From Patescibacteria group bacterium (GTDB lineage: Bacteria > Patescibacteriota > Gracilibacteria > UBA4473), in the NCBI GenBank assembly GCA_965660445.1, contig CBFIAK010000001.1:160001-224000 (forward strand): DNA of 64,000 bases, in the 5' to 3' direction. Made by a program: the position numbers and the translations under genes. The notes under the pieces were generated by a model. That model was not told the origin of the DNA. It saw only the letters and a program-made list of their open reading frames with translations, and did not search any database. Numbering within the stretch: the stretch's first letter is position 1; the number at the start of each line of letters is the position of its first letter. Shown piece after piece: positions 24,674 to 63,655 of the stretch.

Positions 24674-25164
24674 GAGGCGCAGTGAAGTGAAAAAGGTTTT
24701 TCACTTCAGAATTATGAATTAAGAATTAGGAATTATGGGGGAAGAGCAGGAGCTACATGGAATCTTGAATCCAGAATCTAGAATCTAGAATAAATCACAG
24801 AAATCGCAGGAATCACAAGTCTTTGCAAAGCCTTATGATTGTTCCTTATTTCTCAAGCTGAATCTCAATCTTAATTCTTATAAAATAGAGACCGGTCTCC
24901 ATTTTTCGTAGATATAGACTGAAAAATAATAGAAGTTTTAGAGTTTGACATACAAAATCACATGTTTAAGCCAAAACTTAGAGACCGGTCTCCAAGTTTT
25001 GGCTTCACTGTGTGTTTTTTTGTTTTTTTAGAGTTATTGTATAACAATAAAATCTGGAATCTTGAATCTAGAATAAATCGCAGGAATCACAAAAAAATCA
25101 CAAGGATGTGCAAAGCCTTGTGATTTTCCCTTAATTCATAATTCCTAATTCATTATTCCAATTC
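24674..25164. repeat. Composite palindromic repeat mosaic between convergent genes
   Basis: Heptamer arrays (GAATCTA/GAATTAG), 30-bp hairpins at 24811-24840 and 25096-25125, GAGACCGGTCTC doublet (centres 24893/4, 24986/7). About 24720-25055 is the reverse complement of about 53220-53550. Confidence 0.9.
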
Positions 25165-26232
25165 TTACGCTCTTTTTTGACGACGACTATCAAGAGAAAA
25201 ATCATAATCGTACACCGCACGCCCAACACGAACAAAAAATGGATATTTCTGAAGGTTTAAAGAAATAGTTCCTAATCGAATATCTCGTTTCTTTAAAACC
25301 CCTTGAATAATATCCTGACGTTTCATAGGCCCCTTGTTTTCCTTTAATACAGAAATAATAACATCACATACCGTTCCAGCAGGCAGATTCCATTCTCGCA
25401 ATCCATACATCCCACGTCCCACTAAAATAAACTCTTCATGACGAATCAAATCATTATGAATAGCCTGTGCTGTTACTTTCTTTTTAGAACTAAAATCATT
25501 TAATACATGATCCACGATATCACTAAAGTGCATTGGCTTTCCTGATTTTCGCAAAGAAACCATGATTTTATCTTTAATTGATCGAGGGTTTATAGTTCTC
25601 CATGATTTAATTCCCCAACCATGATCGGTCTTTAAAAATTCCCAATGAACCATCAATAGAGAATGAATCATCTCTGGTGTATACTGATTTAATCTTGAAT
25701 TAAGTGATTCTATAGAAAGAGTATCTCCGTGCTTCTCAATGATTTGAGTTATTTTTTGAACAGCTGATTTAATTTCTTGAATTTTTAGGTCTTTTGTATA
25801 CCAAAAAGAACGAAAAAACTGATTTTTTTCTTGTTTCAAAATCTTATCAGAAACACAAATAGCCAACTTCATAGCATTTACATTCACATTGTTTGCATCT
25901 TTTAAATTTTTTAACATTTCAGAAATCAAACGATCCTCTGCCATTATTTTTCCATTCGCTACCAAAATACTGTGTGCCAAATCATGGATATAACGAATTG
26001 AAGGCTCCATTGATATACGAGCCAATTTCTTCATAGCAACAGATTCAATCTGCCGAACACGCTCACGAGTAATTGAATAACTTTTTCCAATGCTCTCAAG
26101 AGTCTCCTTTTTTCCGTTTTTCAATAAAAAACGCCGCTCGATAATACTTTTCTCTTTCGAGGTAAGCAAACCAAGAAGCGAATCCATTACCTCTGAAAAA
26201 TTAATCTTTTTTTGTAGCGTTTGTGCTTTCAT
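25165..26232 (-). CDS. Sigma70 region-4 HTH protein with C-terminal winged-HTH (HARE/delta-like) domains
   Basis: ETLESIGKSYSITRERVRQIE (sigma r4) without sigma region 2; GKPMHFSDI...FILVGRGMYGLREW wHTH. Confidence 0.8.
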   Translation of the reverse strand: MKAQTLQKKINFSEVMDSLLGLLTSKEKSIIERRFLLKNGKKETLESIGKSYSITRERVRQIESVAMKKLARISMEPSIRYIHDLAHSILVANGKIMAEDRLISEMLKNLKDANNVNVNAMKLAICVSDKILKQEKNQFFRSFWYTKDLKIQEIKSAVQKITQIIEKHGDTLSIESLNSRLNQYTPEMIHSLLMVHWEFLKTDHGWGIKSWRTINPRSIKDKIMVSLRKSGKPMHFSDIVDHVLNDFSSKKKVTAQAIHNDLIRHEEFILVGRGMYGLREWNLPAGTVCDVIISVLKENKGPMKRQDIIQGVLKKRDIRLGTISLNLQKYPFFVRVGRAVYDYDFSLDSRRQKRA

Positions 26233-26438
26233 ATTCAGAAAAAATTATATAAATATTCAATAATATAAAAAAATGTCATGAGAATAGTAAGACTTATTTC
26301 ACAAGTTGTCAATTTTTTCACTTGTCATATTTTATTATTATTTTTTATTATAAATAAGAGTAAAGAAAAAAATATCACAAAAAAACAAATACAAAAAAAG
26401 CAAAACAAAAAACAAACACATAAAAAAAAAGAAAATAT

Positions 26439-26466
26439 TTGACAGAAGAAAAAAAATTCATACCCT
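26439..26466 (+). promoter_or_regulatory. S10 operon promoter
   Basis: TTGACA-16 bp-TACCCT. Confidence 0.55.
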
Positions 26467-26516
26467 AACGAGGCTCTTTTAGAGTAAATCACTTTCTAGA
26501 ATTAGGAATAATTCAT

Positions 26517-26903
26517 ATGGTAAAAAATCAAAAAACGGATTCAGCTTCTTCCAGTAAAGCCACTAAGAAAGCAAGTGGTAAGAAAACGGAAGTTATTACT
26601 CAGAAAGTAAGAATCATTCTAAAGGCTTATGACTACATTGTAGTTGATAAAGCTGCACGACTCATTATAGATACAGCTGAACGAGGCGGGTCTTTGGTGA
26701 GTGGTCCTGTTCCACTACAAACAAAAATAAAAAAGTACACAATAAATCGATCATTCTTTGTAAACAAAGATGCTCGAGATCAATACGAAATTCGAATTCA
26801 CAAACGATTGCTTGATATAAAAGAACCAACACCTCAAACAATTGAATTGTTGCAAAACCTATCGCTCCCAGAAGGAGTTGATATTGAAATTAAAATGATG
26901 TAA
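26517..26903 (+). CDS. rpsJ: 30S ribosomal protein S10
   Basis: RIILKAYD, GPVPL, RDQYEIRIHKRL; Lys/Ser-rich N-terminal extension. Confidence 0.96.
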   Translation: MVKNQKTDSASSSKATKKASGKKTEVITQKVRIILKAYDYIVVDKAARLIIDTAERGGSLVSGPVPLQTKIKKYTINRSFFVNKDARDQYEIRIHKRLLDIKEPTPQTIELLQNLSLPEGVDIEIKMM

Positions 26904-26923
26904 CTCTCTTAAAACCTCCAGAA

Positions 26924-27511
26924 ATGAAAGGATTACTAGCTCGCAAAATCGGCATGACACACATCATTTCACCAGAAGATGGTGCTATGATTCCTGTGAC
27001 ATTACTCCACGTACCTGAAAACAAAATTCTTCAAGTGAAAACGGCGAAAACTGATGGATATTCTGCGTGTGTATTGGCATCATTTGAACGAAATAAAAAA
27101 TACAAAAACACGGGTCTACGTTACACATTTATAAAAGAAGTAAAAGGAGAGAATGAAGATTGGAAAAAAGATGCAGTATTAACTGTTGCTGATTTTGAAG
27201 GAGTTGAAAAAGTAAACATCACTGGTGTTTCAAAAGGACGAGGATTTGCTGGGGTTATTAAACGACATAATTTTGCTCGAGGGCGAGAAACACATGGTTC
27301 TCACCATCACCGAGAACCTGGTTCATCTGGGATGTGTGCAAAACCAGGTCGAATTATAAAAGGAAAACGAATGCCTGGACACTACGGAGTTGATCAACAA
27401 ACTATTCGATCAGTGAAAGTAGTAGATACGGATTCAGCGAATAACATTATCGCTGTTAAAGGAGCTGTTCCGGGGGCTCGAAATAGTTTTGTATCGATTA
27501 TCGCAGCATAA
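26924..27511 (+). CDS. rplC: 50S ribosomal protein L3
   Basis: KIGMT, SKGRGFAGVIKRH, KGAVPG. Confidence 0.97.
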   Translation: MKGLLARKIGMTHIISPEDGAMIPVTLLHVPENKILQVKTAKTDGYSACVLASFERNKKYKNTGLRYTFIKEVKGENEDWKKDAVLTVADFEGVEKVNITGVSKGRGFAGVIKRHNFARGRETHGSHHHREPGSSGMCAKPGRIIKGKRMPGHYGVDQQTIRSVKVVDTDSANNIIAVKGAVPGARNSFVSIIAA

Positions 27512-28146
27512 TGAACATAGATATTTATACCAGTACGGGAGAAAAAAAAGGTACTCAGTCATTACCAAAAGCTTTGTTTGAAGTAAATGTAAACGAAGGT
27601 TTGATGCATAGGGCTGTTGTTATGCGATTAGCAAACGCACGAAAGCCTATTGCTCATACAAAAACAAGAGCTGAAGTGGTTATGACTACGAAAAAAGCAT
27701 TTCGTCAAAAAGGAACTGGACGTGCTCGACGAGGAGCTTTGTCAACAAACTTATTACGAGGTGGGGGGGTGACACATGGTCCACGAAGCATACAAAGTTT
27801 TGCTATAGATATGTCAAAAAAAGAAAGACGATTAGCATTGTTTTCAAGTTTAACAGTGAAAGCAAATGAAAAAAGCATCTTTGGTTTAGAAGCGTTAGGA
27901 TATGAAATACCAAAAACAAAATCATTTTCTGATCTTCTTAAAAAACTTCCTGAAGCAAAAAAATATCTTTTTGTTATTCCAAAAAAAGATCCTATATTTG
28001 AGAAATCAGTTTCAAATATTCCAAATGTGTCTGTGTTATTAGCTCAGTATTTAAACCCACTTGATGTATTAAAAGCTGAAAAAATTTGTTTTGTTTCTGA
28101 TGCACTTCAATCCGCTGAAAGTATATTCTTATCTTCTCAAAAATAA
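27511..28146 (+). CDS. rplD: 50S ribosomal protein L4
   Basis: TKTRAEV, RQKGTGRARRG, GGGVTHGP. Confidence 0.97.
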   Translation: MNIDIYTSTGEKKGTQSLPKALFEVNVNEGLMHRAVVMRLANARKPIAHTKTRAEVVMTTKKAFRQKGTGRARRGALSTNLLRGGGVTHGPRSIQSFAIDMSKKERRLALFSSLTVKANEKSIFGLEALGYEIPKTKSFSDLLKKLPEAKKYLFVIPKKDPIFEKSVSNIPNVSVLLAQYLNPLDVLKAEKICFVSDALQSAESIFLSSQK

Positions 28147-28433
28147 TGGTACTAGTAGAAAACGTATTACGACGCCCAATTGTAACAGAAAAAACTGTTT
28201 CACAAAAAGACAAATTTTCTTTTGCCGTTCATGCAGATGCATCAAAAGCAGATATAGTGAAAGCAGTTCAAGAATTTTACGGGGTGAGCGCAGAAAAAGT
28301 AAATATTGTAAATCTTCCACAAAAAACACGAATCATTCGTCGTGGACAAGTAGCTCGAAAACGAGCACCTTTTAAAAAAGCAATTGTAACTCTTAAAAAA
28401 GGAGAAACTCTTGATTTTAACGCATTTAAATAA
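28146..28433 (+). CDS. rplW: 50S ribosomal protein L23
   Basis: PIVTEK, KKAIVTLK; operon position. Confidence 0.96.
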   Translation: MVLVENVLRRPIVTEKTVSQKDKFSFAVHADASKADIVKAVQEFYGVSAEKVNIVNLPQKTRIIRRGQVARKRAPFKKAIVTLKKGETLDFNAFK

Positions 28434-28442
28434 TCTTTCATT

Positions 28443-29282
28443 ATGGGAATTAAATTACTAAAAGCAACAACAAACGGACAACGTGACATGAGTTATGTTG
28501 ACGGTGCACAACTAGCTCCTTCAAAGAAGAAGTACAAACATCTTCTTGTGCCGGGTCGAAAAGTAACAGGACGTGGAAAACACGGAATCACGATTCGACA
28601 TCGAGGAGGAGGAACTCGTGCAGCATATCGAAAAGTAGATTTTTCAGGAGTTGATAAACTTGGAATTCCAGGAAAAATTGAAGCTATTGAATACGATCCA
28701 AATCGAACAGCTTATATTGCTTTGGTTTTATATGTTGATGGAGAACGACGATACCAATTAGCACATAAGAATGCAAAAGTGGGAGATGAAACTATTACCG
28801 ACACAAAAGCAAAAGTAAGAGAAGGGAACCGAATGCAACTCAAAAACATCCCTGTTGGTTTTTCTGTTTTTAATGTAGAAATAACACCAAACAAAGGGGG
28901 GCAAGTAGTTCGATCTGCCGGACAAAAAGCACAGCTCACATCACTTGATGGAGATATGGCACAAGTATTACTTCCATCAGGAGAAATTCGATTTGTAAAT
29001 AAAGATTGTTTTGCAACAATTGGAATTCTCTCAAACGAAGAAAAAAGTCTTGTTCGTATTGGAAAAGCTGGTCGAGTTCGACACACTGGTCGACGTCCTC
29101 AAGTTCGAGGAAAAGCGATGAATCCAATTGACCATCCACATGGAGGAGGAGAAGCTGCAAATTCTATTGGGCTTCGGTATCCAAAAACACCATGGGGAGC
29201 TCCTGCATTAGGAGTAAAAACAAGAAAACGTAGTAAAGATAACAAACTTATTGTTCGATCTCGACACCGAGCAAAAAAATAA
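28443..29282 (+). CDS. rplB: 50S ribosomal protein L2
   Basis: IEYDPNRTA, GKAGR, MNPIDHPHGGGE. Confidence 0.98.
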   Translation: MGIKLLKATTNGQRDMSYVDGAQLAPSKKKYKHLLVPGRKVTGRGKHGITIRHRGGGTRAAYRKVDFSGVDKLGIPGKIEAIEYDPNRTAYIALVLYVDGERRYQLAHKNAKVGDETITDTKAKVREGNRMQLKNIPVGFSVFNVEITPNKGGQVVRSAGQKAQLTSLDGDMAQVLLPSGEIRFVNKDCFATIGILSNEEKSLVRIGKAGRVRHTGRRPQVRGKAMNPIDHPHGGGEAANSIGLRYPKTPWGAPALGVKTRKRSKDNKLIVRSRHRAKK

Positions 29283-29318
29283 TATATTCCTTTATTTCTA
29301 TTTTAAATTCTATAATTC

Positions 29319-29597
29319 ATGACACGATCTGCAAAAAAAGGTCCATACATTGATCCTCGAGTTGAAAAAAAAGTGAAAACTTTAGATGCTTCAGGAGAAA
29401 AGAAAGTGATTAAAACATGGTCACGATCTTGCACCATAACTCCAGAGTTCGTTGGACACACATTTGGTGTACACAACGGAAAAGAACACATTCCTGTGTT
29501 TTGTACTGAATCAATGGTTGGTCATAAATTAGGAGAATTTTCTCCAACTCGAAAATTCCGAGGACATGGAGGAAAGTTAGCAAAAAAACAAAAATAA
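29319..29597 (+). CDS. rpsS: 30S ribosomal protein S19
   Basis: [26 protein letters not shown]. Confidence 0.98.
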
Positions 29598-29627
29598 TTT
29601 TATTTTTTAAAAAACGGCTTATACAGC

Positions 29628-29960
29628 ATGAAAGCACATTTAAGAAACATTCGTATATCACCCAAAAAGGCAAATATTGTTGCTGGACTCATCCGGAACA
29701 AATCTGCTGTAGAGGCATTGAATATACTCAAATTCACGCCGAAAAAAGCATCTCAATTACTCTACAAAACATTAGCTTCTGCTATTAGTAATGCAGAAAA
29801 TAATGAGAGTGAGAAAAGAGAATCATTGGTGATTCAAGAGGTTGTTATTAATAAAGGACCTGTATTAAAAAGATTTCTTCCTTCTACTCGTGGTCGAGCT
29901 TTACCATTACAAAAGCCAACCACTCATATTTCAATTTATCTTTCAAAAACTAATAATTAA
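29628..29960 (+). CDS. rplV: 50S ribosomal protein L22
   Basis: RISPKK, SAISNAENN, KPTTHI. Confidence 0.97.
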   Translation: MKAHLRNIRISPKKANIVAGLIRNKSAVEALNILKFTPKKASQLLYKTLASAISNAENNESEKRESLVIQEVVINKGPVLKRFLPSTRGRALPLQKPTTHISIYLSKTNN

Positions 29961-30613
29961 TGGGAAAAAAAGTATCACCGCATTCAATTCGTATAGGAAT
30001 AACTCGTGGATGGGATTCTATTTGGTTTGCAAAACGAGGATTTAAAGAAAAATTTCTTCAAGATATTGAAATTCGAAAAATGCTCGAAAAAAAGTTTGAG
30101 AAAGCAAAAGTAGCAAAAGTTGAAATCAAACGAGATGCAAAAAAAGCACGAGTTGTGATTCATTCTGGAAAACCAGGGCTTATTATTGGTCGGGGAGGAG
30201 AACAAATTCAAGAAATAGCAAAAGAACTTTCAGAAAAATATAATGATAAGTTTGATGTTTCCATTCAAGAAGTTCGAAAAGTTGACGGAAGTGCCCCACT
30301 TATTGCACAATCTATTGCGGATCAAGTTTCTCGACGGTTTCCATATCGACGAGTTGTAAAAATGGCTGTTGATAGAGCAAAGGAATCAGGAGTAAAAGGA
30401 ATAAAAGTTATTGTTTCTGGCCGATTAAATGGAGTTGATATTGCTCGAAAAGAAACCTATAACTACGGAAAAGTTCCACTTCACACACTTCGGGCAAATA
30501 TTGATTATTCAACAGCAGAAGCATCAACAATGTACGGAATTATAGGAGTAAAAGTTTGGGTGTATCATGGACTTGTGTTTAAAGAAAAAAGAGACGATCA
30601 ATTATTATTTTAA
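29960..30613 (+). CDS. rpsC: 30S ribosomal protein S3
   Basis: KPGLIIGRGG, SGRLNG, VPLHTLRANIDY, YGIIGVKVW. Confidence 0.98.
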   Translation: MGKKVSPHSIRIGITRGWDSIWFAKRGFKEKFLQDIEIRKMLEKKFEKAKVAKVEIKRDAKKARVVIHSGKPGLIIGRGGEQIQEIAKELSEKYNDKFDVSIQEVRKVDGSAPLIAQSIADQVSRRFPYRRVVKMAVDRAKESGVKGIKVIVSGRLNGVDIARKETYNYGKVPLHTLRANIDYSTAEASTMYGIIGVKVWVYHGLVFKEKRDDQLLF

Positions 30614-30616
30614 ATA

Positions 30617-30648
30617 AAAAAAAATCCCGAATATTCGGGATTTTTTTT
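30617..30648. terminator. Bidirectional terminator ending the truncated S10 operon
   Basis: Perfect inverted repeat A8-TCCCGAATATTCGGGA-T8 between convergent genes. Confidence 0.85.
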
Positions 30649-30674
30649 AACACAAATGAAATGATAATTATAAG

Positions 30675-31133
30675 CTATGCTGCTTTTTTAGCTTCTTTTG
30701 CTTTATTTGCTTTTCGATGAGCAGAATATGAAACAGCTCCTTTACCACCATCAACTACAACACCAACGGCACCACTGTGTTTATTATTTTTAGGGTTCTT
30801 TTTTCCAACAACCCCATGAGCAGTATGCAAAGCAGCTCCAGTTATATTTGTAGCAGCTCGTGATCCAGTTTCAGCAATAGATCCAACTACATTTTTTGTA
30901 AGGTTTACTCCCCCTTTAATAATAGGATGAGTAATACTTGGTGCTACTTTTAAAAGTGGAATCTTTTTGAGCACTTGATGCACTTTATCACTTACAAAAT
31001 CAACCGCTTTAAACGGAATATCTGTAACCGATCGAACACCTGAAGAAACCTTATCATGGATATCTACATTTTCTGCATTTTTATACAGATATCGGGTAGA
31101 TACCGATTGAGAAGAAAGAGAAATATTTTTCAT
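30675..31133 (-). CDS. Hypothetical small basic protein
   Basis: 152-aa ORF with upstream TTGACT...TATTAT and downstream terminator; Gly/Val/Ala/Lys-rich. Confidence 0.6.
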   Translation of the reverse strand: MKNISLSSQSVSTRYLYKNAENVDIHDKVSSGVRSVTDIPFKAVDFVSDKVHQVLKKIPLLKVAPSITHPIIKGGVNLTKNVVGSIAETGSRAATNITGAALHTAHGVVGKKNPKNNKHSGAVGVVVDGGKGAVSYSAHRKANKAKEAKKAA

Positions 31134-31201
31134 GAGAAAATGTTAAGATTAAATATTACAAATACATAATACAACAAAAAAAAACAAAAAGTCAATATAT
31201 T

Positions 31202-32047
31202 TTAAAGAACAATATTCATTTTTCCAACACTTTCTTGGGGTGAGTAATTTGATAATAGTATTTTAAAACATTCATCCACTAAATCATGGTCACCATTCTC
31301 AGCTCTTATGAAAGCATTTTTAGGGCATAAAAAAGGGATAGGGGGGTGTAGGGGTGATCGTGTAATAATCTCATCAGCTTGCTGAAAATGAATATCGTAA
31401 ATATGGGCGTTTGAAATAGAGATTGTCAAAAGTCCTACTGGAATATTTAATTTTTCTGCTAAAAAATAATTCAATAAAGCAAACCCTGCAACATCATGAG
31501 GGTTTCCAAGCATCATATCATTAGATCGAATAACAAGATGTAAACAAAGCCTTCCCCCAATAACTTGAACAGTAAATGTAAATGGACATGGAACATTTTT
31601 CTTTTTTGTTCCATTTGCAAGCCCATCATCAGAAGGATCCCACATTAAAATAACACCATGTCTTGATGATTGATCAGAAGAAAGAAGTTGCAAAAGTCCT
31701 TCTATTTGGTCTCTTTGAAAATGTTTTCTCCATCGATATCCATAAGCAGAAGAAACTATATTTCCTTTATCTGCAAAATCATCCCATATTTTTGTATATT
31801 GTTGTAAAAAATCTAATTCTCTTTTTCCTTGTAAAAACCAAACTTGCTCGGCAATAAATATTTTAAGAGGGATTTTACGAAGTGTTAAAAGAGGAAACCC
31901 TTTTTCTAAATCAAACTGCATATGAGCGCCTGCTATACTCTGACAGATATGTCCTGTTCTTTTATTTTTTTCTTGAAAACCTTCTTCTCGTATTTTTTTT
32001 AGAATTTCTTTATACTGAATATCGAACTCATTTATTAATTTTTTCAT
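31202..32047 (-). CDS. thyA: Thymidylate synthase family protein (atypical active site)
   Basis: RTG, GFPLLT, YGYRWR, catalytic PC (Cys154), RSND, AHIY. Confidence 0.88.
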   Translation of the reverse strand: MKKLINEFDIQYKEILKKIREEGFQEKNKRTGHICQSIAGAHMQFDLEKGFPLLTLRKIPLKIFIAEQVWFLQGKRELDFLQQYTKIWDDFADKGNIVSSAYGYRWRKHFQRDQIEGLLQLLSSDQSSRHGVILMWDPSDDGLANGTKKKNVPCPFTFTVQVIGGRLCLHLVIRSNDMMLGNPHDVAGFALLNYFLAEKLNIPVGLLTISISNAHIYDIHFQQADEIITRSPLHPPIPFLCPKNAFIRAENGDHDLVDECFKILLSNYSPQESVGKMNIVL

Positions 32048-32078
32048 TATAAATAAAGTGTAAGATATTTTTTTAAAA

Positions 32079-32339
32079 ATGACAAAACCAAACTCCCCCT
32101 ATTATACATTTACAGGTAAAGAAATATTATCAGATATTATGGATATAATCCCAGATGCATCTGAAATACTTCTTTCGCATGGTTTAGGATGTGCAGGGTG
32201 TCATTTTAATATGTTTGAAACTCTTGAAGAAGGGTTTCGTGGGCATGGATTTTCAGAAGAAGACCTTGAAAACGTATTAAATGATTTAAATGAAGCTGCA
32301 TATGATCTGCAAATACCCTTAAAAAAAGAGGAAAACTAA
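32079..32339 (+). CDS. DUF1858-like small CxxC redox protein
   Basis: GLGCAGC...ETLEEG..HG pattern. Confidence 0.75.
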   Translation: MTKPNSPYYTFTGKEILSDIMDIIPDASEILLSHGLGCAGCHFNMFETLEEGFRGHGFSEEDLENVLNDLNEAAYDLQIPLKKEEN

Positions 32340-32780
32340 AAAAAGAAGGAGTGTTTTAAGAAAGAAGATAAGAGAAAGAAAAAAGTAATACTCATTTCTT
32401 TCTTTTTTTTATATGTGTTTTTAAGGAGATATAGAAACAAAAAAACAAAAAAATAACAGATTCTTCTTTTCAAAAAGTTTTAAACATTTTTTCTTTGTTT
32501 TTAAGAGTATTTTTTTTAAAGACAAAAAACCTTTCTAAAAAAGATTTTAGTTGTATACATTTTTTTATAAATAAAAAGTATTCCTTTTTGCAAAAAAAAG
32601 AGAGAAAAAGCAAGTAAAATATAGTTTTTGTTTTTATAAAAAGGTTTCTTTGTTTTTAAACATATTTTTACTATTGTATTACTAATTATTTATATATATA
32701 TTTCTAAAAATAATACATATTATAGTTTTATATACGTAACAAAAAATATTTTCTTTCAAATATATATTTTTTTATTAAAA
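32340..32780. other. Extremely AT-rich non-coding region, candidate replication origin
   Basis: ORF-free and very low GC; coincides by eye with a C-rich to G-rich skew switch and with divergence of predominant gene orientation. Confidence 0.4.
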
Positions 32781-32783
32781 TAT

Positions 32784-32811
32784 TTGACTTTTTTTGTTTT
32801 ATTTATAGGAT
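32784..32811 (+). promoter_or_regulatory. rpoC promoter
   Basis: TTGACT-16 bp-TAGGAT. Confidence 0.55.
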
Positions 32812-32915
32812 TCTCAAGCTATATGAGAAATAGACATCTCTTCTTTCCGTATATTTCTTCTTAATAAAGGGCATTTTTATGTCTTTTTTCGAGTTTTTAT
32901 TCTTCTTTTTCATTC

Positions 32916-35900
32916 ATGGTACAAACAACAACTCCACATACTCAATCAGATACAGAATTTAATGCTATTGCAATATCAATTGCATCTCCTGAGGATATAT
33001 TACGTTGGTCAAATGGTGAAATAACAAAACCAGAGACAATAAACTACAGAACACAAAAACCAGAAAAGGATGGTCTTTTTTGTCAAAAGGTATTTGGTCC
33101 AGTTAAAAACTATGAATGTGGATGTGGAAAATACAAAAGAATTCGTTATCGAGGGATAACGTGTGAGGTTTGTGGTGTTGAAGTAACACGATCTATTGTT
33201 CGTCGGGAGCGAATGGGGCATGTAAAATTAGCAGTTCCTATTGCTCATACTTGGTTTTTACGATCTACTCCTTCTAAAATAGGTCTTCTTTTAGGTTTGG
33301 CAGTAAAAAAACTAGAACAAGTGGTTTATTTTGCTTCATATATTGTGGTTGATGTTGATGATGTGCAAAAAGAAGAGGAGTTGAAAAAATTAAATAAAGA
33401 ATATCAACAAGTTATAGAACGAGTGAAGGAGGAAAATAGTCAAAGTCTTCGAGCAGTTAAAAAAGCACTTAAAAATGGAGAAATGACAGAAGATCAAGTG
33501 CTTGAATTTGAACGATCACTTTTGGAAAAAGTTGAAGAAGTGAATCAGAATTTTGATATCGCAAAACGACAATTGAAAAGTATTATTCGTGGAGAAGTTT
33601 TAACAGAAACTGAGTATCGTGAAATTTCTTTAAAGTTTGGACATGTTTTTCGAGCTGGAATTGGTGCTGATGCTGTTCGTGAAATTCTTCAAAAAATAAA
33701 TCTTGAATCGTTTATTGAGGAAATGAAGGAGGATTACAAAGCTTCATCAGGACAAAAACAAAAAAAAATCGTAAAACGGATGCGATTAGCGGGTTCTTTT
33801 TTAAGAAGTAATATGAAACCAGAGTGGATGATTTTAACAGTTATTCCTGTTATTCCACCAGATTTACGTCCAATGGTTCAGCTTGATGGAGGACGGTTTG
33901 CTACTTCAGATTTAAATGATTTGTATCGACGAGTGATTAATAGAAATCAACGACTTAAAAAACTTATCCAATTAGGGGCACCTGAAATTATTTGTCGAAA
34001 TGAGAAAAGAATGCTTCAAGAAGCGGTTGATATTTTGATATCAAATCAAGTTCGAAATTCAAAAGCAGGAATGAATTATGTTCAAAAGAGAAAGTTAAAA
34101 TCTCTTTCTGATATGCTTAAAGGAAAACAAGGACGATTTCGTCAAAATCTTCTTGGGAAAAGGGTTGATTATTCAGGGCGTTCTGTGATTGTGGTTGGTC
34201 CTCAACTTCGATTACATGAATGTGGGCTTCCGAAATACATTATGATGGAACTTTTTAAACCATTTGTTATTTCTCGGCTTATTAAGTATGAACTTGTTTT
34301 TAATGTAAAAAGTGCAGAAAAAATGATTCGACTTGGAGAAAAAATTGTTTGGGATGTGTTAGAGGAAGTTATTAAAGGGAAGTGTGTACTTTTAAATCGT
34401 GCACCAACGCTTCACAGACTTGGTATTCAGGCTTTTTATCCTCGTATTGTTGAGGGAAAAGCTATTCAAGTGCATCCATTAGTTTGTCCAGCGTTTAATG
34501 CAGATTTTGATGGAGATCAAATGGCTGTTCATCTTCCTCTTTCGGAAGCAGCTCAAGATGAAGCTCGAAATATTATTCTTTCGTCAAAAAATATTTTAAA
34601 ACCATCAAGTGGGGATCCTGTTATTGATCCATCACAAGATATTGTGCTTGGGTGTTATTTTTTAACAGAAATAATGGATGGATTAAAAGGAGAAGGAAAT
34701 ATGTTTTTCTCTCTAGATGATGCTATTTATGCTTATAATGTTGGAAATATAGATTTAAAAGCAAAAATAAAAATCCGTATGAATGGAGAAATGCTAGAAA
34801 CATCAGTTGGTCGTGTTTTCTTTAATCAGATTTTACCGGAAGGTGTTGAGTTTCAAAACCAAGTGTTTAGAAAGAAATCATTGAGTAAGTTATTAGCTGA
34901 TATTTATACTCTTCATGGAACTGATCAAACAGCTATAGTTGCTGATGCTATTAAAGATATTGGGTTTAAGTATGCAACTATTTCAGGAGTTTCTATTTCT
35001 GCTTTTGATTTATATGGAGCAGAAGATAAAGAAAAAATGGTTGAAAAGGCAGATATTATTGTTGATCATATTAATAATCAGTTTCGACAAGGGCTTATTA
35101 CAAATGACGAACGCTATGAACACACTATTAAAATTTGGTCACGAGTAAAAAATGACGTGATGCAACAAATGGTGGGGCGGTATAAAAGTGGAAATGATAT
35201 CTTTACACAGGTGGATTCAGGGGCTCGAGGGAACTGGGGACAAATCACGCAACTTTCAGGAATGAAAGGGTTGGTATCAAGTCCATCAGGAAAAACAATT
35301 GAGTTACCTATTCGTTCGAACTTAAAAGAAGGATTTACTATTTTGGAATACTTTATTGCGACACATGGGGGACGAAAAGGAAAATCAGATACAGCGCTTA
35401 AAACAGCAGAGGCAGGGTATCTTACTCGACGATTGGTTGATTCCGTGCAAGATATCGTTGTTCGAGAAGAAGATTGTAAAACAGATAAATATCGTGTTAT
35501 TTCTCGGGTTCATTCGGCAAAACTAGGTATTCCGTTTGCAAAACGAATTTATGGTCGATTTTTGGCACAAGATGTTGTGGTTGATGGAAAGGTTGTTGTT
35601 ACAAAAGAAACACTTATTGATGATGCTATACTTCATGTAATAGAAGAGTCTCAGGTTGAATCAGTGGCTGTGTATTCGGTTATGTATTGTACAACGCTTG
35701 GGGGGATATGCCAAAAAACGTATGGATTTGATCTCAGTGCGAATAAAATAGTGAAAATGGGAACTCCTGTGGGGATTATGGCGGCTCAATCGATTGGAGA
35801 ACCTGGTACTCAGTTGACAATGCGTACATTCCACATGGGAGGTATTGCAACGGAGGGAGCGTCTATTACTCAAGGGCTTACGCGTGTAGAAGAAATATTT

Positions 35901-36740
35901 GAAGCACGATCTCCAGCTGCACCAGCTGTTGTTGCTGAAATTTCAGGGGTTGCGTCTGTGAAACGAGGAAAAAATGATACAAAAATTGTTATTGAGTCTC
36001 GTGCTGAAGAAGATGATGTATACGAACTTCGATATGCAATGGAACCAGTTGTTAAAGAAGGTGATGTGGTGAAAGAAAAACAAATTATTGCACGATCAAC
36101 AGAAAGTAAAGAAACAGTTAAATCGTTTTGTGCGGGAGTTGTGAAAAAAGCAGAAGATGATGTTATTATTATTCATCAAAACGAAAAACGACAAAAAACA
36201 TACAGTGTTTCAAATCGAACAACAATTCGAATAAAAGATGGAGATATGGTTAAGAAGGGATCAGCTCTTACGGCAGGGCATTTAGATCTTCGAGAGTTGA
36301 TGGATTTGGCTGGAGTTGATGTTGTTCAGGACTATGTTTTAAATGAAGTTTTGAATGTATATTCTTCTCAAGGACAAGATATTAATGAAAAACATATTGA
36401 GGTTATCGTGAAACAAATGTTTTCAAAGGTGCGAATTATTGATCCAGGAGATACTGATTTCTTACCAGGAGAAGTAAAAGACTATGTGGAGTGTTTGCAT
36501 ATAAATAATGGAGTTACTGATCCAAAGAAAAAAGTTCGATTTGAGCGACTTTTGTTAGGACTTACTCGTGTTTCTCTGTGGACTCAATCATGGCTTTCGG
36601 CGGCTTCTTTCCAAGAAACCACTCGAGTACTCGTTGATGCTGCTGTGTCTCGAAAGATAGATACACTTGACGGATTAAAAGAAAACGTTATCATCGGTCG
36701 GCTTATTCCTGCGGGAACTGGATATAAACACCAAAAATAA
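32916..36740 (+). CDS. rpoC: DNA-directed RNA polymerase beta' subunit
   Basis: KPETINYRT, zinc finger, [39 protein letters not shown]. Confidence 0.99.
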
Positions 36741-43763: not shown

Positions 43764-44768
43764 ATGGCTCATCGTATTGCTATTAATGGATTTGGTCGCA
43801 TAGGTCGTTGTGTGGCTCGTATTCTTTTAGAAACATATCCTGACAGTGTGGATATTGTTGCTATTAATGATCCTTCTCATGGTCATTCGAGTGCGTTTCT
43901 GTTTGAGTTTGATTCAAACTTTGGAGCGTATCCAGGGCATGTATCGTTTGATGAGTCTATGCAAGAATATGAGATAGACGGGAAACGAATTAAAAAGTTT
44001 GCTACTCGATCTATTGAAGAATTGCCATGGGGAGATCTTGATATTGATGTGGTGATTGAGTCAACAGGTGTTTTTACAAATAAAGATGATTGTGAAAGAC
44101 ATTTAAAACAGGGGGCAAAAAAAGTGTTATTATCGGCTCCGGCAAAAGGTGGAGGGTTTAAAACAATTGTGTTAGGCGTGAATGAACAGACGCTTTCTAC
44201 TGATGATCGATTGGTTTCAAATGCGTCATGTACGACGAATTGTTTAGCACCGGTAGCAAATGTATTACACCAAAAGTTTGGTATTGAGTCTGGGTTTATG
44301 ACAACGGTTCATTCTTATACAACAAGTCAGCGATTATTGGATATGGAAGACAAAAAAGATTTGCGTCGTGGGCGATCAGCTGGGCAGAATATTATCCCTA
44401 CCAGTACTGGTGCAGCGAAAGCGATTGGGCTTGTGATTCCTGATTTAAATGGAAAGCTAGATGGGATTGCTGTGCGCGTTCCGACTCCAACGGTGTCTTT
44501 GGTTGATTTAACAGTTCGGGTTTCTCGGGATGTATCAGTAGAAGAAATAAATAATGCGATGCGTGATGCTTCGTTTGAGAATCCGGTTGTGTTGGGGTAT
44601 GAAGAACGGCCGTTGGTGTCATCTGATTTTCGAAAAGATTCTCGGTCGTCTATTTTTGTGCCCAGTGAAACAAAAACAAATGGTTCAATGGTGAAGGTTT
44701 TGTCTTGGTATGATAATGAGTGGGGGTATTCGAGTCGGTTAGCAGATTTAGCGTATCGTATTTCATGA
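43764..44768 (+). CDS. gap: Type I glyceraldehyde-3-phosphate dehydrogenase
   Basis: INGFGRIGR, SNASCTTNCLAP, WYDNEWGYS. Confidence 0.98.
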   Translation: MAHRIAINGFGRIGRCVARILLETYPDSVDIVAINDPSHGHSSAFLFEFDSNFGAYPGHVSFDESMQEYEIDGKRIKKFATRSIEELPWGDLDIDVVIESTGVFTNKDDCERHLKQGAKKVLLSAPAKGGGFKTIVLGVNEQTLSTDDRLVSNASCTTNCLAPVANVLHQKFGIESGFMTTVHSYTTSQRLLDMEDKKDLRRGRSAGQNIIPTSTGAAKAIGLVIPDLNGKLDGIAVRVPTPTVSLVDLTVRVSRDVSVEEINNAMRDASFENPVVLGYEERPLVSSDFRKDSRSSIFVPSETKTNGSMVKVLSWYDNEWGYSSRLADLAYRIS

Positions 44769-45211
44769 GAAAAATATTTTTTGTTTTTATTTTTGGTGTT
44801 TTGTTGTGGGGGTGTGGATCCTCACAAGAAGAGGTTTTAGAAAACAAGAAATTAGATAATTTAGACACCGTTTCGGGGAGGTCTGGGTATCGGTATGCTT
44901 CAGATTTAGAGTGTAAAATTACAACGGCTACCGATCCATCAAAAGAGGGGGAGGTGTTCCATTTAAAAGGATTAGATTCTCCTATAAATACTATTTCGTT
45001 TGCACAAGACGATTTTCGTCCAATTGTGATGGAACGTGCAGGGATGGGTGTTCAGTTTCGTGGGTTTGTGATAATAAGTACATTGTATGGGCAGTCGTAT
45101 TTGTTGTTTGATGTTGAGACGGGAGTGTTTAGTTTATCGAGTCTTGATATTATTGAGACACTCGATAAAAATACGTATCGTGGGAACTGTGGTGCTTTAT
45201 TGGGTTCTTGA
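44765..45211 (+). CDS. Putative lipoprotein
   Basis: ATG at 44765 overlaps the gap stop (ATGA); MRKIFFVFIFGVLLWG-C lipobox. Confidence 0.7.
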   Translation: MRKIFFVFIFGVLLWGCGSSQEEVLENKKLDNLDTVSGRSGYRYASDLECKITTATDPSKEGEVFHLKGLDSPINTISFAQDDFRPIVMERAGMGVQFRGFVIISTLYGQSYLLFDVETGVFSLSSLDIIETLDKNTYRGNCGALLGS

Positions 45212-45222
45212 CTTTTTTTCTA

Positions 45223-62413: not shown

Positions 62414-63655
62414 ATGTCTCTTCAATCCCAAGACCCCGCCGTATACAGCGCTCTTCAAGGCGAAATTGAACGCCAAAGCACAGGGCTCGAACTTATCCCG
62501 TCAGAAAACTATGTGTCTCAAGCCGTGCTTGAAGCATCTGGTTCTATACTTACCAATAAATACAGCGAAGGATACCCTGGACGTCGTTACTACGGAGGTC
62601 AAGAATATACCGATATCATCGAAAACCTTGCCATCGAACGAGCGTGCAGTCTTTTCAATTGCCAATACGCAAACGTGCAACCTCATTCTGGTGCTCCTGC
62701 CAATATCGCTACCTATTTTGCGTTGCTTCAACCCGGAGACACTATTTTAGGAATGGATCTTTCCCATGGTGGGCACCTAACCCACGGACACCCCGTGACT
62801 CATATTGCCAAAATTTTTCGGTTTGTACGATACGGTATGAAAGATATTACTACCGGAGAAATAGACTACGAAGCTCTTCGCCAAACAGCCCTCAAAGAAA
62901 AACCAAAAATGATCTTAGCCGGGTTTTCCGCCTACCCGCGTGAACTCGACTACCAAAAATTTGCCGATATCGCCCAAGAAGTCGGCGCTTATGCCGTTGC
63001 CGATATCGCCCATATCGCCGGACTTATCGCCGGAAAAGCACTCGCAAACCCGTTTGACTACGGGTTCGATGTGATGCTCTCAACAACCCATAAAACCCTT
63101 CGAGGTCCTCGAGGTGGGCTTATACTCGTGAAAGAGAACCCCGATATCATTAAAAAAATTAATAAATCAGTGTTCCCTGGGTTCCAAGGCGGTCCACATA
63201 TGCACCAAATTGCCGCTAAAGCAGTCTGCTTTGCAGAAGCACAAGATCCGTCGTTTCAAACCTATGCTCAAAACGTTATCCAAAACGCCAAAGCGATGGC
63301 AGACGTGTTTCTGCAAGAAAAAATTCGACTCATCACAGGAGGAACGGATAACCATCTTTTACTGGCGGATGTCTATAGTTCGCTCGGGGTTACCGGAAAA
63401 GAAGCCCAAACTGTGCTTGATGAAGTAGGAATCACCCTCAATATGAACGCTATCGCCGACGATCCACGCCCCCCCCTTGATCCATCAGGAATACGGTTTG
63501 GTACCCCAGCCATAACAACACGAGGGTTTGGTGTAAAAGAGTCAAAACAAGTCGCTCACGTGATGATTAACGTCTTAAGAGACAAAGATAACCCCGAAAC
63601 TAAAAAACGCGCTCGAAACGAAATTTTAGCGTTGTGTGAGGAGTATGCAGTATGA
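62414..63655 (+). CDS. glyA: Serine hydroxymethyltransferase
   Basis: LIPSEN, NKYSEGYPGRRYY, GGHLTHG, TTHKTLRGPRGG. Confidence 0.98.
   Translation: MSLQSQDPAVYSALQGEIERQSTGLELIPSENYVSQAVLEASGSILTNKYSEGYPGRRYYGGQEYTDIIENLAIERACSLFNCQYANVQPHSGAPANIATYFALLQPGDTILGMDLSHGGHLTHGHPVTHIAKIFRFVRYGMKDITTGEIDYEALRQTALKEKPKMILAGFSAYPRELDYQKFADIAQEVGAYAVADIAHIAGLIAGKALANPFDYGFDVMLSTTHKTLRGPRGGLILVKENPDIIKKINKSVFPGFQGGPHMHQIAAKAVCFAEAQDPSFQTYAQNVIQNAKAMADVFLQEKIRLITGGTDNHLLLADVYSSLGVTGKEAQTVLDEVGITLNMNAIADDPRPPLDPSGIRFGTPAITTRGFGVKESKQVAHVMINVLRDKDNPETKKRARNEILALCEEYAV

What the first reader, a model, noticed from the sequence alone, without database searches (positions are those of the whole stretch)
31202..32047. 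Thymidylate synthase homolog with Asp at the dUMP-specificity Asn: possible dCMP (hydroxy)methylase
Seen: RSNDMMLGNPHDVAGFALL in place of canonical RSxDxxLGLPFNIASYALL. Asp185 (31493-31495) is 31 residues after catalytic Cys154, the same spacing as E. coli C146 to N177. The His after the Cys is also replaced (PCP). Known: this Asn selects dUMP; Asn-to-Asp mutants of E. coli and L. casei TS methylate dCMP, and T4 dCMP hydroxymethylase has Asp there. Inference: this cell may make 5-methyl-dCMP, either as an alternative route to dTMP via deamination or as a modified-base precursor.
Basis: partly seen in the sequence, partly recalled or inferred. Interest (0 to 1): 0.72.

Follow-up and report, generated by a model that had tools for sequence, protein, structure and literature searches.

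The report
Cytosine-methylating thymidylate synthase in CPR bacteria
This tiny bacterium's only thymidylate synthase gene has the active-site changes of phage enzymes that methylate dCMP instead of dUMP, and it travels with three partner genes, so the cell probably makes thymine by methylating cytosine nucleotides first and deaminating them afterwards.

Summary
Window 31202-32047 (-) encodes a 281-aa thymidylate synthase (TS) homolog. Asp185 sits at E. coli Asn177, Pro155 at His147 and Asn151 at Leu143. The segment around the catalytic Cys reads K-N-V-P-C-P, as in the phage Xp12 TS homolog, which a preprint reports to make 5-methyl-dCMP.

It is the only TS homolog found in a 991-kb, 100%-complete genome. 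No thyX, thymidine kinase or deoxynucleoside kinase was found.

The main new result is gene co-variation:
- In 37 of 41 genomes of its family, this Asp-type TS co-occurs with a dCTP-deaminase-like protein whose catalytic Glu is Pro, and with a zinc deaminase. A DHFR-like gene often lies in the same operon.
- Sister families keep the canonical Asn-type ThyA together with the Glu-type dCTP deaminase.
- The same cluster appears in 43 other Patescibacteria loci, but in only 11 of 298 sampled genomes of the phylum outside the family.

Best reading (0.6): an Xp12-like route in a cell, dCTP -> dCMP -> 5-methyl-dCMP -> thymidine nucleotide. Nothing was assayed. Whether 5-methylcytosine also enters the DNA is open. 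My searches found no paper describing this in cells.

The parts
31202..32047 (-). Asp-type thymidylate synthase homolog, 281 aa (P0001); predicted dCMP C5-methylase (5-methyl-dCMP synthase)
   Evidence: ORF. PF00303 at 5.5e-54. Only PF00303 match in the genome. 34% identical to the Xp12 TS homolog, E 2e-52.
31493..31495 (-). Asp185 codon (GAT), at the position of E. coli Asn177, the pyrimidine-specificity residue
   Evidence: DNA. Alignments. Asp in 120 of 120 close homologs.
31583..31588 (-). Cys154-Pro155 codons: the catalytic Cys (E. coli C146) followed by Pro in place of His147
   Evidence: Pro in 120 of 120 close homologs. Positions 177 and 147 are the two top discriminators of modified-cytosine phage contigs in eLife PMC8670742 (passages).
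31595..31597 (-). Asn151 codon, at the position of E. coli Leu143. Same residue as in the Xp12 TS homolog; T4 gp42 has Asp here.
   Evidence: The rule that a hydrophobic residue goes with methyl and Asp/Glu with hydroxymethyl comes from NAR 2026, PMC13326640 (passages).
31658..31660 (-). His130 codon, at the position of E. coli Arg127 (phosphate-binding Arg contributed by the partner subunit)
   Evidence: His in 120 of 120 close homologs. Among 150 representatives: Gln 77, Arg 49, His 20, gap 4.
62420..63562 (+). Serine hydroxymethyltransferase (glyA), the source of 5,10-methylene-THF for the TS homolog
   Evidence: PF00464 at 2.1e-151 at G000:C1:222420-223562, which is window 62420-63562.
32079..32339 (+). 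86-aa redox-disulfide-domain protein, transcribed divergently from the TS gene. Longer versions (175-180 aa) sit in the same place in relatives. No functional link is known.
   Evidence: TIGR03980 at 4.4e-15. Same divergent neighbour in G073, G093, G112 and G103.

Best explanation
The gene encodes a TS-fold enzyme that methylates dCMP, not dUMP, at C5 with 5,10-methylene-THF. The products would be 5-methyl-dCMP and dihydrofolate.

It works in a four-enzyme module that replaces the classical route dCTP -> dUTP -> dUMP -> dTMP. The proposed steps are:
1. A dCTP-deaminase-like protein that has lost its deaminase Glu (P0271, G000:C1:231222-231881) removes pyrophosphate without deaminating. It either supplies dCMP from dCTP or returns 5-methyl-dCTP to the monophosphate.
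2. The Asp-type TS methylates dCMP.
3. A DHFR-like protein (P0272, overlapping the start of P0271) recycles dihydrofolate. SHMT (in the window) reloads the folate.
4. A zinc deaminase (P0273, G000:C1:458181-458918) converts the 5-methyl-deoxycytidine nucleotide into a thymidine nucleotide.

So the same three chemical steps run in a different order: dephosphorylate, methylate, deaminate. This is the thymidylate route described for phage Xp12, here as the only recognisable thymidylate route of a cell.

Shown here: the residues, the gene content, the co-occurrence, the operons, the fusions and the phylogeny. Inferred: every substrate and product.
For: 1. Active site. D185 = N177, P155 = H147, N151 = L143, F91 = W83. 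The catalytic Cys146 and R21, E58, W80, Y94, R126, R166, S167, D169, H207 and Y209 are kept. The segment K-N-V-P-C-P and the insertion before it are shared with the Xp12 TS homolog.

2. Literature, passages only.
- N177D switches TS to dCMP, and positions 177 and 147 are the top discriminators of cytosine-modified phage contigs (PMC8670742).
- The Xp12 TS homolog and 5 of 7 tested deaminase-linked Asp-type homologs made 5mdC in vivo. The linked deaminase mSCD-B5 converts 5mdCTP to dTTP (10.1101/2024.12.05.627091).

3. Tree. One Asp-type clade of 132 rows (SH-aLRT 99) holds the query, its family, other CPR sequences and the Xp12/Mallos/ZQG1/DoCa5 phage enzymes.

4. Sole route. There is 1 PF00303 match in a 100%-complete genome. 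No thyX (15), no TK (19), no dNK beyond the tmk gene scoring below cut-off (97). DHFR-like (16, 64), SHMT (22), tmk (21) and RNR (81) are present.

5. Co-variation within the class.
- 14 of 14 family-f1 loci are Asp-type and 16 of 16 loci from other families are canonical (CH..PFN, R127, W83).
- The DCD-like partner has Pro at the catalytic Glu in 14 of 14 f1 loci and Glu in 16 of 16 loci from other families.
- Across 53 Pro-type and 16 Glu-type sequences the split is 100% against 100%.

6. Co-occurrence within family f1, 41 genomes.
- Asp-type TS in 37.
- Pro-type DCD-like in the same 37.
- The deaminase in all 37 (35 of the short type, 2 of the long type, G000 among them).

7. Operons. TS-DHFR-DCD-like(-deaminase) clusters occur in G073, G093, G112, G027, G063 and G103.

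8. Other Patescibacteria. All 43 further loci carry C-P and P-x-D. Within 5 kb, 38 have a DCD-like gene (Pro in 36 of 36 readable), 36 the deaminase and 35 a DHFR-like gene.

9. Fusions.
- dCMP-deaminase domain + Asp-type TS (P0142) and PRA-PH NTP pyrophosphatase + Asp-type TS (P0178).
- Deaminase + thymidylate kinase next to an Asp-type TS in L143.

10. Phage parallel. Mallos, ZQG1, DoCa5 and Xp12 carry hydrolase - Asp-type TS - dCMP deaminase - DHFR cassettes.
Against: - No activity was measured for any of the four proteins.
- The gene context fits the classical order equally well (dCTP -> dCMP -> dUMP by a dCMP deaminase -> dTMP by TS). Only the TS active site and its clade separate the two orders.
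- 2 of the 7 Asp-type homologs tested in the preprint gave no 5mdC.
- The query is only 34% identical to the Xp12 enzyme. It sits in the sister subclade, not among the tested phage enzymes.
- G000 keeps an ordinary dUTPase, so it can make dUMP.
- In G000 the four genes are dispersed (191 kb, 231 kb, 458 kb). Its deaminase is a divergent 245-aa form that Pfam barely sees (E 0.043), so its link to the module rests on distant homology.
- The CPR deaminases show no significant BLASTP similarity to the phage deaminases, so 5mC preference cannot be transferred from the phage enzymes.
- The protein passes one NCBIfam thymidylate synthase equivalog cut-off (TIGR03284, 138.8 against 108.35).
- Asn at position 143 is neither the hydrophobic nor the acidic state of the published rule.
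Confidence: 0.6

Rival explanations
1. Same enzymes, different purpose. As in phages Xp12 and PaMx74, the module mainly serves to put 5-methylcytosine into the cell's own DNA in place of some or all cytosine. The Pro-type DCD-like protein acts as a dCTPase that depletes dCTP. Thymidine nucleotides are a side branch made by deaminating part of the 5-methyl-dCTP pool.
For: - The phage cassettes with the same logic belong to viruses reported to replace C entirely by 5mC (passages).
- The characterised phage deaminase works only on triphosphates, which implies a 5mdCTP pool that polymerases can use.
- A dCTP-directed pyrophosphatase is what exclusion of C from DNA would need.
- No C5 DNA methyltransferase (PF00145) was found in G000.
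Against: - No cellular organism is known to do this (my recall).
- No data on base composition of the DNA were available here.
- The deaminase + thymidylate kinase fusion fits a monophosphate route to dTMP at least as well.
- The CPR deaminases are unrelated at BLASTP level to the phage triphosphate deaminases.
- The module is missing from one family member that keeps canonical genes (G136). That is easier to square with an exchangeable metabolic route than with a genome-wide base change.
Confidence: 0.15
2. It is an ordinary thymidylate synthase that still uses dUMP in spite of Asp177. The operon is a classical dCMP-deaminase route: a DCD-like dCTP/dUTP pyrophosphatase, a dCMP deaminase making dUMP, then TS and DHFR.
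For: - It is the only TS homolog in a complete genome that also has DHFR-like, SHMT, tmk and dUTPase genes.
- It passes TIGR03284.
- All catalytic residues other than 177 and 147 are kept.
- A protonated Asp could in principle make the same hydrogen bonds to uracil (my inference).
- The CPR literature treats thyA as ordinary (PMC12455944 and PMC11974145, passages).
Against: - N177D/N229D mutants switch to dCMP (cited).
- The Asp-type clade holds enzymes reported to make 5mdCMP.
- This reading gives no reason why N->D and H->P in TS should coincide, in 37 of 37 family genomes, with loss of the deaminase Glu in DCD and gain of a separate deaminase, while 16 of 16 loci from sister families keep both canonical forms.
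- It scores below 7 of 8 NCBIfam TS cut-offs.
Confidence: 0.17
3. It is a dCMP hydroxymethylase (T4 gp42-like) or a 5-hydroxy-dCMP synthase, making a precursor for further DNA hypermodification.
For: - Asp177 is shared with T4 gp42.
- Asn143 is polar and might admit water.
- In the quick tree T4 gp42 falls within the CPR-containing subclade, but on a very long branch (3.75), so its place is unsure.
Against: - Position 143 is Asn as in the Xp12 homolog, not Asp/Glu as reported for hydroxymethylases. D169 is kept, whereas 5-hydroxy-dCMP synthases have D169N.
- A DHFR-like gene is operon-linked. It is needed only if dihydrofolate is produced (established TS chemistry).
- No glycosyl- or other transferase was seen in the clusters.
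- The hydrophobic C-terminus (..IVL) resembles that of ThyA.
Confidence: 0.05

Closest known systems
Deoxycytidylate methyltransferase (5-methyl-dCMP synthase) of Xanthomonas phage Xp12 and PaMx74-like Bradleyvirinae, with its linked 5mC-selective deaminase and DHFR
   Same: - TS fold, Asp177, Pro147, Asn143 (K-N-V-P-C-P) and Phe83, with a shared insertion before the catalytic Cys.
- Same Asp-type clade.
- Gene linkage to a pyrophosphatase-type hydrolase, a zinc deaminase and a DHFR.
- The logic 'methylate cytosine, then deaminate to thymine' (Kuo et al. 1982 seen only as a citation).
   Different: - 34% identity, and a sister subclade.
- Arg127 is His and Tyr176 is His.
- The host is a cell, not a virus, and this is its only TS.
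- The pyrophosphatase partner is a Glu-less dCTP-deaminase homolog rather than a HAD or MazG-type hydrolase.
- The deaminase belongs to a different subfamily.
Canonical thymidylate synthase ThyA (EC 2.1.1.45), e.g. E. coli
   Same: The fold and nearly all catalytic and folate-binding residues. A hydrophobic C-terminus. DHFR and SHMT partners.
   Different: Asn177 -> Asp, His147 -> Pro, Leu143 -> Asn, Trp83 -> Phe, Arg127 -> His. Below 7 of 8 NCBIfam equivalog cut-offs.
Engineered N177D (E. coli) and N229D (L. casei) TS dCMP methylases
   Same: The single change that these mutants carry is the natural state here (cited; the original papers were not read).
   Different: A natural enzyme with further co-adapted substitutions, conserved across a large clade.
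T4 gp42 dCMP hydroxymethylase and MilA CMP hydroxymethylase
   Same: TS fold, catalytic Cys, Asp at position 177 (MilA from passages and the abstract listing).
   Different: T4 gp42 has Asp at 143 and Thr at 147. These enzymes yield THF, not DHF (established chemistry). Here position 143 is Asn and a DHFR-like gene is linked.
dCTP deaminase (Dcd) and bifunctional dCTP deaminase-dUTPase, for the partner protein P0271
   Same: PF22769 at 1.7e-29. Passes TIGR02274 (99 against 92.8). The Ser/Arg motif and the Asp of G-x-I-D are kept.
   Different: The catalytic Glu is Pro in 53 of 53 sequences. His121 is Asp, Phe130 is Tyr, and a G-R insertion is present. An archaeal DCD-like dUTPase without deaminase activity is a precedent that I recall; its NCBIfam model NF002598 scores only 46.6 bits here.

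Membership tests
Thymidylate synthase superfamily (Pfam PF00303) | Significant match to the family model over its curated cut-off | tested here: met
   183.5 bits against a cut-off of 24.3, E 5.5e-54. Best solved structure 3ix6_A, E 3.2e-38.
Thymidylate synthase superfamily (Pfam PF00303) | Catalytic Cys146 and the core residues R21, E58, W80, Y94, R126, R166, S167, D169, H207, Y209 | tested here: met
   All are present in P0001 and in 120 of 120 close homologs.
Canonical ThyA (dUMP -> dTMP) | Asn at position 177, which selects uracil | tested here: not met
   Asp185 aligns here.
Canonical ThyA (dUMP -> dTMP) | His at position 147 | tested here: not met
   Pro155.
Canonical ThyA (dUMP -> dTMP) | Score above the NCBIfam equivalog cut-offs | tested here: inconclusive
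   Below the cut-off for 7 of 8 models. Above it for TIGR03284 (138.8 against 108.35).
Canonical ThyA (dUMP -> dTMP) | Methylates dUMP; complements a thyA deletion | not testable with these tools
   Needs an enzyme assay or a complementation test.
Xp12-type 5-methyl-dCMP synthase | Asp177 together with a non-His residue at 147 | tested here: met
   D185 and P155, the same residues as in the Xp12 TS homolog.
Xp12-type 5-methyl-dCMP synthase | Non-acidic residue at position 143 (methyl rather than hydroxymethyl product) | tested here: met
   Asn151. Xp12, Mallos, ZQG1 and DoCa5 all have Asn; T4 gp42 has Asp.
Xp12-type 5-methyl-dCMP synthase | Falls in the same clade as the enzymes of reported activity | tested here: inconclusive
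   Same Asp-type clade (132 rows, SH-aLRT 99). But it lies in the CPR subclade (35 rows, support 91), which is sister to the 80-row subclade holding Xp12 (support 99). Quick tree only.
Xp12-type 5-methyl-dCMP synthase | Gene linkage to a deaminase and a DHFR | tested here: met
   Operons in relatives. Co-occurrence in 37 of 37 family genomes. In G000 itself the genes are dispersed.
Xp12-type 5-methyl-dCMP synthase | Product is 5-methyl-dCMP | not testable with these tools
   Needs LC-MS of the reaction products.
T4-type dCMP hydroxymethylase / 5-hydroxy-dCMP synthase | Asp or Glu at position 143 (hydroxymethylase), or Asn at position 169 (5-hydroxy-dCMP synthase) | tested here: not met
   Asn at 143 and Asp at 169. 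Rules are from NAR 2026 passages.
dCTP deaminase (Dcd), for the partner P0271 | Catalytic Glu (E138 in E. coli numbering, recalled; the 'TLE' motif) | tested here: not met
   Pro in the alignment to 2qxx. Pro in 14 of 14 f1 sequences against Glu in 16 of 16 from other families. 53 of 53 against 16 of 16 in the larger set.

The most novel reading that the evidence does not exclude
A whole family of free-living or epibiotic ultra-small bacteria, and scattered other Patescibacteria, build their own chromosomes with 5-methylcytosine in place of much or all cytosine, using a phage-style dCTPase / dCMP-methylase / deaminase module. That would let a DNA-scavenging cell tell its own DNA from host or prey DNA. 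It would be the first cellular organism with a wholesale base replacement.
Probability: 0.15. Interest if true: 0.97.

Novelty: new variant of a known kind. Interest (0 to 1): 0.8.

Why it matters
Thymidylate synthesis is taken to run through dUMP in all cells, by ThyA or ThyX. The route 'methylate dCMP, then deaminate' is known from phage Xp12 and its relatives.

Here the same logic appears as the only recognisable thymidylate route of cellular organisms. It is fixed in one Patescibacteria family and scattered through the phylum. It comes with a previously unremarked partner, a dCTP-deaminase homolog that has given up deamination.

If this is right, several things follow:
- Genome annotation pipelines misname at least two enzymes in these genomes ('thymidylate synthase', 'dCTP deaminase').
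- Metabolic reconstructions of CPR nucleotide metabolism are wrong at this step.
- The cells may avoid uracil deoxynucleotide intermediates.
- The question of whether some cells carry 5mC-substituted DNA becomes directly testable.
- It also offers a natural set of cellular dCMP methylases and possibly 5mC-selective deaminases, which are of interest as methylome-sequencing tools.

Tried and rejected
- Genetic code. The class includes TGA-recoded lineages (TGA inside matches), so I tested table 25. I rejected it for this genome. Long genes have no in-frame TGA, 55 of 418 long ORFs end in TGA, and DHFR ends and DCD-like starts in an overlapping ATGA. The TS gene holds no TGA and ends in TAA.

- 'No deaminase in the genome.' PF00383 found nothing in G000. 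This was misleading: tblastn with the operon deaminases of relatives found a divergent homolog with HAE and CxxC motifs.

- PF00383 matches in family f1. Many are RibD, not nucleotide deaminases.

- An idea I dropped: that the DCD-like protein itself deaminates 5-methyl-dCTP. It lacks the catalytic Glu in 53 of 53 sequences and a separate deaminase is linked. This is not excluded experimentally.

- 'General CPR trait.' Rejected. Only 14 of 301 sampled genomes of the phylum (11 of 298 outside f1) have a close Asp-type match at E <= 1e-60.

- Expression. The look-up of sequencing runs listed no RNA holder.

- Promoter and terminator scan around the gene: not above shuffles (17 found against a mean of 12.9).

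- Structure prediction, fold search, complex prediction and the protein atlas were not run. The tools return no residue-level superposition, so they could not test the N177 mapping better than the ungapped alignments do.

- Literature searches that found no report of a cellular dCMP methylase or of this module in Patescibacteria. The library lacks most subscription journals. The supplements of the papers I read are closed, including Supplementary Figure 1E of the preprint, which lists the tested TS homologs.

- Papers: what I saw of each.
  - PMC8670742, PMC8543423, PMC13326640, 10.1101/2024.12.05.627091, PMC12455944, PMC11974145: passages only.
  - PMC5175136: search listing and start of the abstract only.
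  - Hardy & Nalivaika 1992, Liu & Santi 1992, Graves et al. 1992, Kuo & Tu 1976, Kuo et al. 1982: seen only as citations.
Full report
THE OBSERVATION

Window 31202-32047 (-) is an open frame of 281 codons that ends in TAA. The protein (P0001) matches Pfam Thymidylat_synt at 5.5e-54. It matches solved thymidylate synthases at up to 3.2e-38.

In those ungapped alignments the stretch RSNDMMLGNPHDVAGFALL lies on RSADIFLGVPFNIASYALL. Asp185 (GAT, 31495-31493) therefore takes the place of E. coli Asn177, and Pro155 the place of His147. An alignment with E. coli K-12 ThyA, taken from its own record, gives the same mapping. It adds Asn151 = Leu143, Phe91 = Trp83, His130 = Arg127 and His184 = Phe176. 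Cys146, Arg21, Glu58, Trp80, Tyr94, Arg126, Arg166, Ser167, Asp169, His207 and Tyr209 are kept.

IS IT CHANCE?

No. I aligned 270 proteins. They were the query and 119 close homologs (64-73% identical), plus the 150 best representatives of 50%-identity clusters.
- All 120 close sequences carry Asp177, Pro147, His127, Phe83 and His176.
- Among the 150 representatives, 122 have Asp, 23 have Asn and 5 have a gap at that column.

So the query belongs to a large, old, conserved group of Asp-type TS homologs.

WHAT THE ASP-TYPE GROUP IS

All literature here was read as passages only.
- The eLife MetaGPA study found positions 177 and 147 to be the two residues that best separate TS homologs on cytosine-modified phage contigs from those on unmodified contigs. 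It cites the N177D/N229D mutant work.
- A 2024 preprint reports that the TS homolog of Xanthomonas phage Xp12, and 5 of 7 tested deaminase-linked Asp-type homologs, make 5-methyl-dC in vivo. It states that Xp12 and PaMx74 replace C by 5mC. [quoted passage not shown]
- A review cites Kuo et al. [quoted passage not shown]
- A 2026 NAR paper gives product rules. A bulky hydrophobic residue at 143 goes with methyl, Asp/Glu at 143 with hydroxymethyl, and D169N with 5-hydroxy-dCMP.

My best phage matches (33-39% identity) are Bradleyvirinae. Mallos, ZQG1 and DoCa5 carry cassettes of hydrolase - TS - dCMP deaminase - DHFR, and their TS are Asp-type. Xp12 has the same cassette.

P0001 is 34% identical to the Xp12 enzyme (E 2e-52). 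It shares the segment K-N-V-P-C-P and the insertion before it. T4 gp42 reads S-D-F-M-C-T at the same place.

A quick maximum-likelihood tree of 163 sequences shows:
- one Asp-type clade of 132 rows (SH-aLRT 99);
- within it, a subclade with the query's family and other CPR sequences (35 rows, support 91);
- an 80-row subclade with Xp12, Mallos, ZQG1 and DoCa5 (support 99);
- T4 gp42 on a very long branch, so its place is unsure.

THE GENOME

The window is G000:C1:160001-224000 of a 991,330-bp, 5-contig genome rated 100% complete. It uses the standard code.

Present:
- one PF00303 match, this gene;
- a DHFR/RibD_C-like protein, P0272;
- SHMT, inside the window at 62420-63562;
- thymidylate kinase;
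- a ribonucleotide reductase;
- a classical dUTPase.

Not found:
- thyX;
- thymidine kinase;
- a deoxynucleoside kinase, other than the tmk gene scoring below cut-off;
- a C5 DNA methyltransferase.

So this gene must either provide thymidylate or be part of whatever does.

THE PARTNER THAT CHANGED WITH IT

Directly downstream of the DHFR-like gene, overlapping it by ATGA, lies a dCTP-deaminase-family protein (P0271, C1:231222-231881).

In the alignment to the M. tuberculosis enzyme (2qxx), its 'LMIPILN' lies on 'ITLELSN'. The catalytic Glu is Pro. It still passes NCBI's dCTP deaminase model (99 against 92.8 bits), so pipelines will call it dCTP deaminase.

CO-VARIATION ACROSS GENOMES

In 151 genomes of the class:
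- Close relatives of P0001 (66-73% identity) occur only in the window's own family, f1. All 14 f1 loci fetched are Asp-type.
- The 16 loci fetched from other families are canonical (CH...PFN, Arg127, Trp83, C-terminus ..VAV).
- With P0271 the picture is the same: 14 of 14 f1 loci have Pro and 16 of 16 loci from other families have Glu.

In a family-level sample of 41 genomes:
- The Asp-type TS is in 37.
- The Pro-type DCD-like protein is in the same 37.
- G136 has canonical-type genes instead.
- G128, G152 and G156 (96, 89 and 74% complete) gave no TS match.

Over 53 Pro-type and 16 Glu-type sequences the Pro/Glu split is complete. It comes with other fixed differences: His121 -> Asp, Glu108 -> Tyr, Phe130 -> Tyr and a G-R insertion.

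THE FOURTH GENE

In relatives the genes form operons. G073 has TS - DHFR - DCD-like, and G093 and G112 have the same with one small ORF between. In G112, G027, G063 and G103 a ~155-aa zinc deaminase (HAE ... CCExC; PF00383 at 6.7e-15) follows the DCD-like gene.

This deaminase is present in 36 of the 40 other family genomes. G000 and G120 instead carry a divergent 245-249-aa form (P0273, C1:458181-458918) with the same HAE and CxxC motifs. Hence 37 of 37 Asp-type genomes have a deaminase of this kind. The earlier 'no PF00383 in G000' was a sensitivity failure.

BEYOND THE FAMILY

A scan of one genome per species found 317 relatives. The best 80 split as follows:
- 37 are of the f1 kind, labelled Peribacteria, Gracilibacteria or Altimarinota.
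- 43 are from other Patescibacteria: Saccharibacteria, Parcubacteria, Kaiser-, Nomura-, Doudna- and Woesebacteria, and Minisyncoccia. Some MAGs are labelled Gammaproteobacteria. Identity is 52-57%.

All 80 carry C-P and P-x-D. Of the 43, within 5 kb:
- 38 have a DCD-like gene (Pro in 36 of 36 readable);
- 36 have the deaminase;
- 35 have a DHFR-like gene.
Several of these loci are cut by contig ends.

The module is nevertheless a minority trait. Only 14 of 301 sampled genomes of the phylum, 11 of 298 outside f1, have a match at E <= 1e-60. The patchy spread, against a canonical background in the same class, suggests horizontal movement of the module (my inference).

FUSIONS

- P0142 joins a dCMP-deaminase domain to an Asp-type TS.
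- P0178 joins a PRA-PH NTP pyrophosphatase to an Asp-type TS.
- In locus L143 the deaminase is fused to a thymidylate kinase domain (PF02223 at 1.8e-18) next to an Asp-type TS.
- In L133 the deaminase carries a nucleoside 2-deoxyribosyltransferase-like domain, at the Pfam threshold.

The first three link pyrophosphate removal, methylation, deamination and phosphorylation of a 5-methylpyrimidine nucleotide.

HOW IT MOST LIKELY WORKS

The classical route deaminates (Dcd), removes pyrophosphate (Dut), then methylates (ThyA). The module appears to run the same chemistry in another order.
1. The Glu-less DCD-like enzyme removes pyrophosphate without deaminating. It acts on dCTP to feed dCMP, or on 5-methyl-dCTP to keep it out of DNA. 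I cannot tell which.
2. The Asp-type TS methylates dCMP. DHFR and SHMT recycle the folate.
3. The zinc deaminase turns the 5-methyl-dC nucleotide into a thymidine nucleotide.

The joint change N177D in TS and Glu -> Pro in DCD makes sense only if the TS substrate must stay a cytosine. That is the strongest argument against the ordinary-TS rival.

Methylase is preferred over hydroxymethylase for three reasons: Asn143 as in Xp12, the retained Asp169, and the operon-linked DHFR.

Every substrate and product is inferred. Nothing was assayed. The gene context alone would also fit the classical dCMP-deaminase order.

WHAT STAYS OPEN

I could not test whether 5-methyl-dCTP accumulates and enters the DNA, as it does in the phages with the analogous cassette. 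I give that 0.15.

The CPR deaminases are not specifically related to the phage 5mC-selective deaminases. Their level of action (mono- or triphosphate) is unknown.

NOVELTY

The enzyme kind and the pathway logic are known from phage Xp12. I found no report of the following in five literature searches:
- the module in cells as their sole recognisable thymidylate route;
- its fixation in a bacterial family;
- the recruitment of a deaminase-dead Dcd homolog.

Two CPR papers treat thyA as ordinary. The library is incomplete and supplements were closed.

Noticed in passing
G000:C1:231222-231881 (about 7.2 kb beyond the window's end); L005:1327-1986 (-): A dCTP-deaminase-family protein with Pro in place of the catalytic Glu, translationally coupled (ATGA overlap) to a DHFR/RibD_C-like gene. 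It forms a conserved subfamily (53 of 53 with Pro) that NCBI's dCTP deaminase model still accepts.
   Followed up: yes
L143:1339-2625 (-); L133:6973-7935 (+); proteins P0142, P0178, P0149: Domain fusions near or within Asp-type TS genes: deaminase + thymidylate kinase; deaminase + nucleoside 2-deoxyribosyltransferase-like domain (at the Pfam threshold); dCMP deaminase + TS; PRA-PH pyrophosphatase + TS; HNH_3 endonuclease + TS.
   Followed up: partly
window 28443-30613 and 32916-36740: The ribosomal protein run rplB-rpsS-rplV-rpsC stops after rpsC. It is followed by two minus-strand genes (a 152-aa protein with no family match, then the TS gene), a small redox-domain gene and then rpoC. This order is unusual. 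I named these genes by eye from the translations.
   Followed up: no
window about 24000-34000: Cumulative GC skew reaches its minimum near 24-26 kb, stays low to about 32 kb and then rises strongly. The 32-34 kb bin has the lowest G+C of the window (0.287), and 32340-32915 is a 575-bp gap without a listed ORF. This may be a replication origin or a strand switch.
   Followed up: no
window 30675-31133 (-): A 152-aa ORF just downstream of the TS gene has no Pfam or NCBIfam match. A promoter-like site lies between the two genes.
   Followed up: partly
window 16141-16558 (+) and 51598-51679 (-): A tmRNA (105 bits) and one tRNA are the only Rfam matches over gathering score in the window.
   Followed up: no
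whole genome G000 and relatives: G000 uses TGA as a stop, while several other families of the same class show many in-frame TGA in conserved genes. G000 also lacks the RibD that most family members have.
   Followed up: partly
window 44000-50000: A stretch of raised G+C (0.40-0.44) and very strong GC skew (0.27-0.36) stands out from the rest of the window.
   Followed up: no
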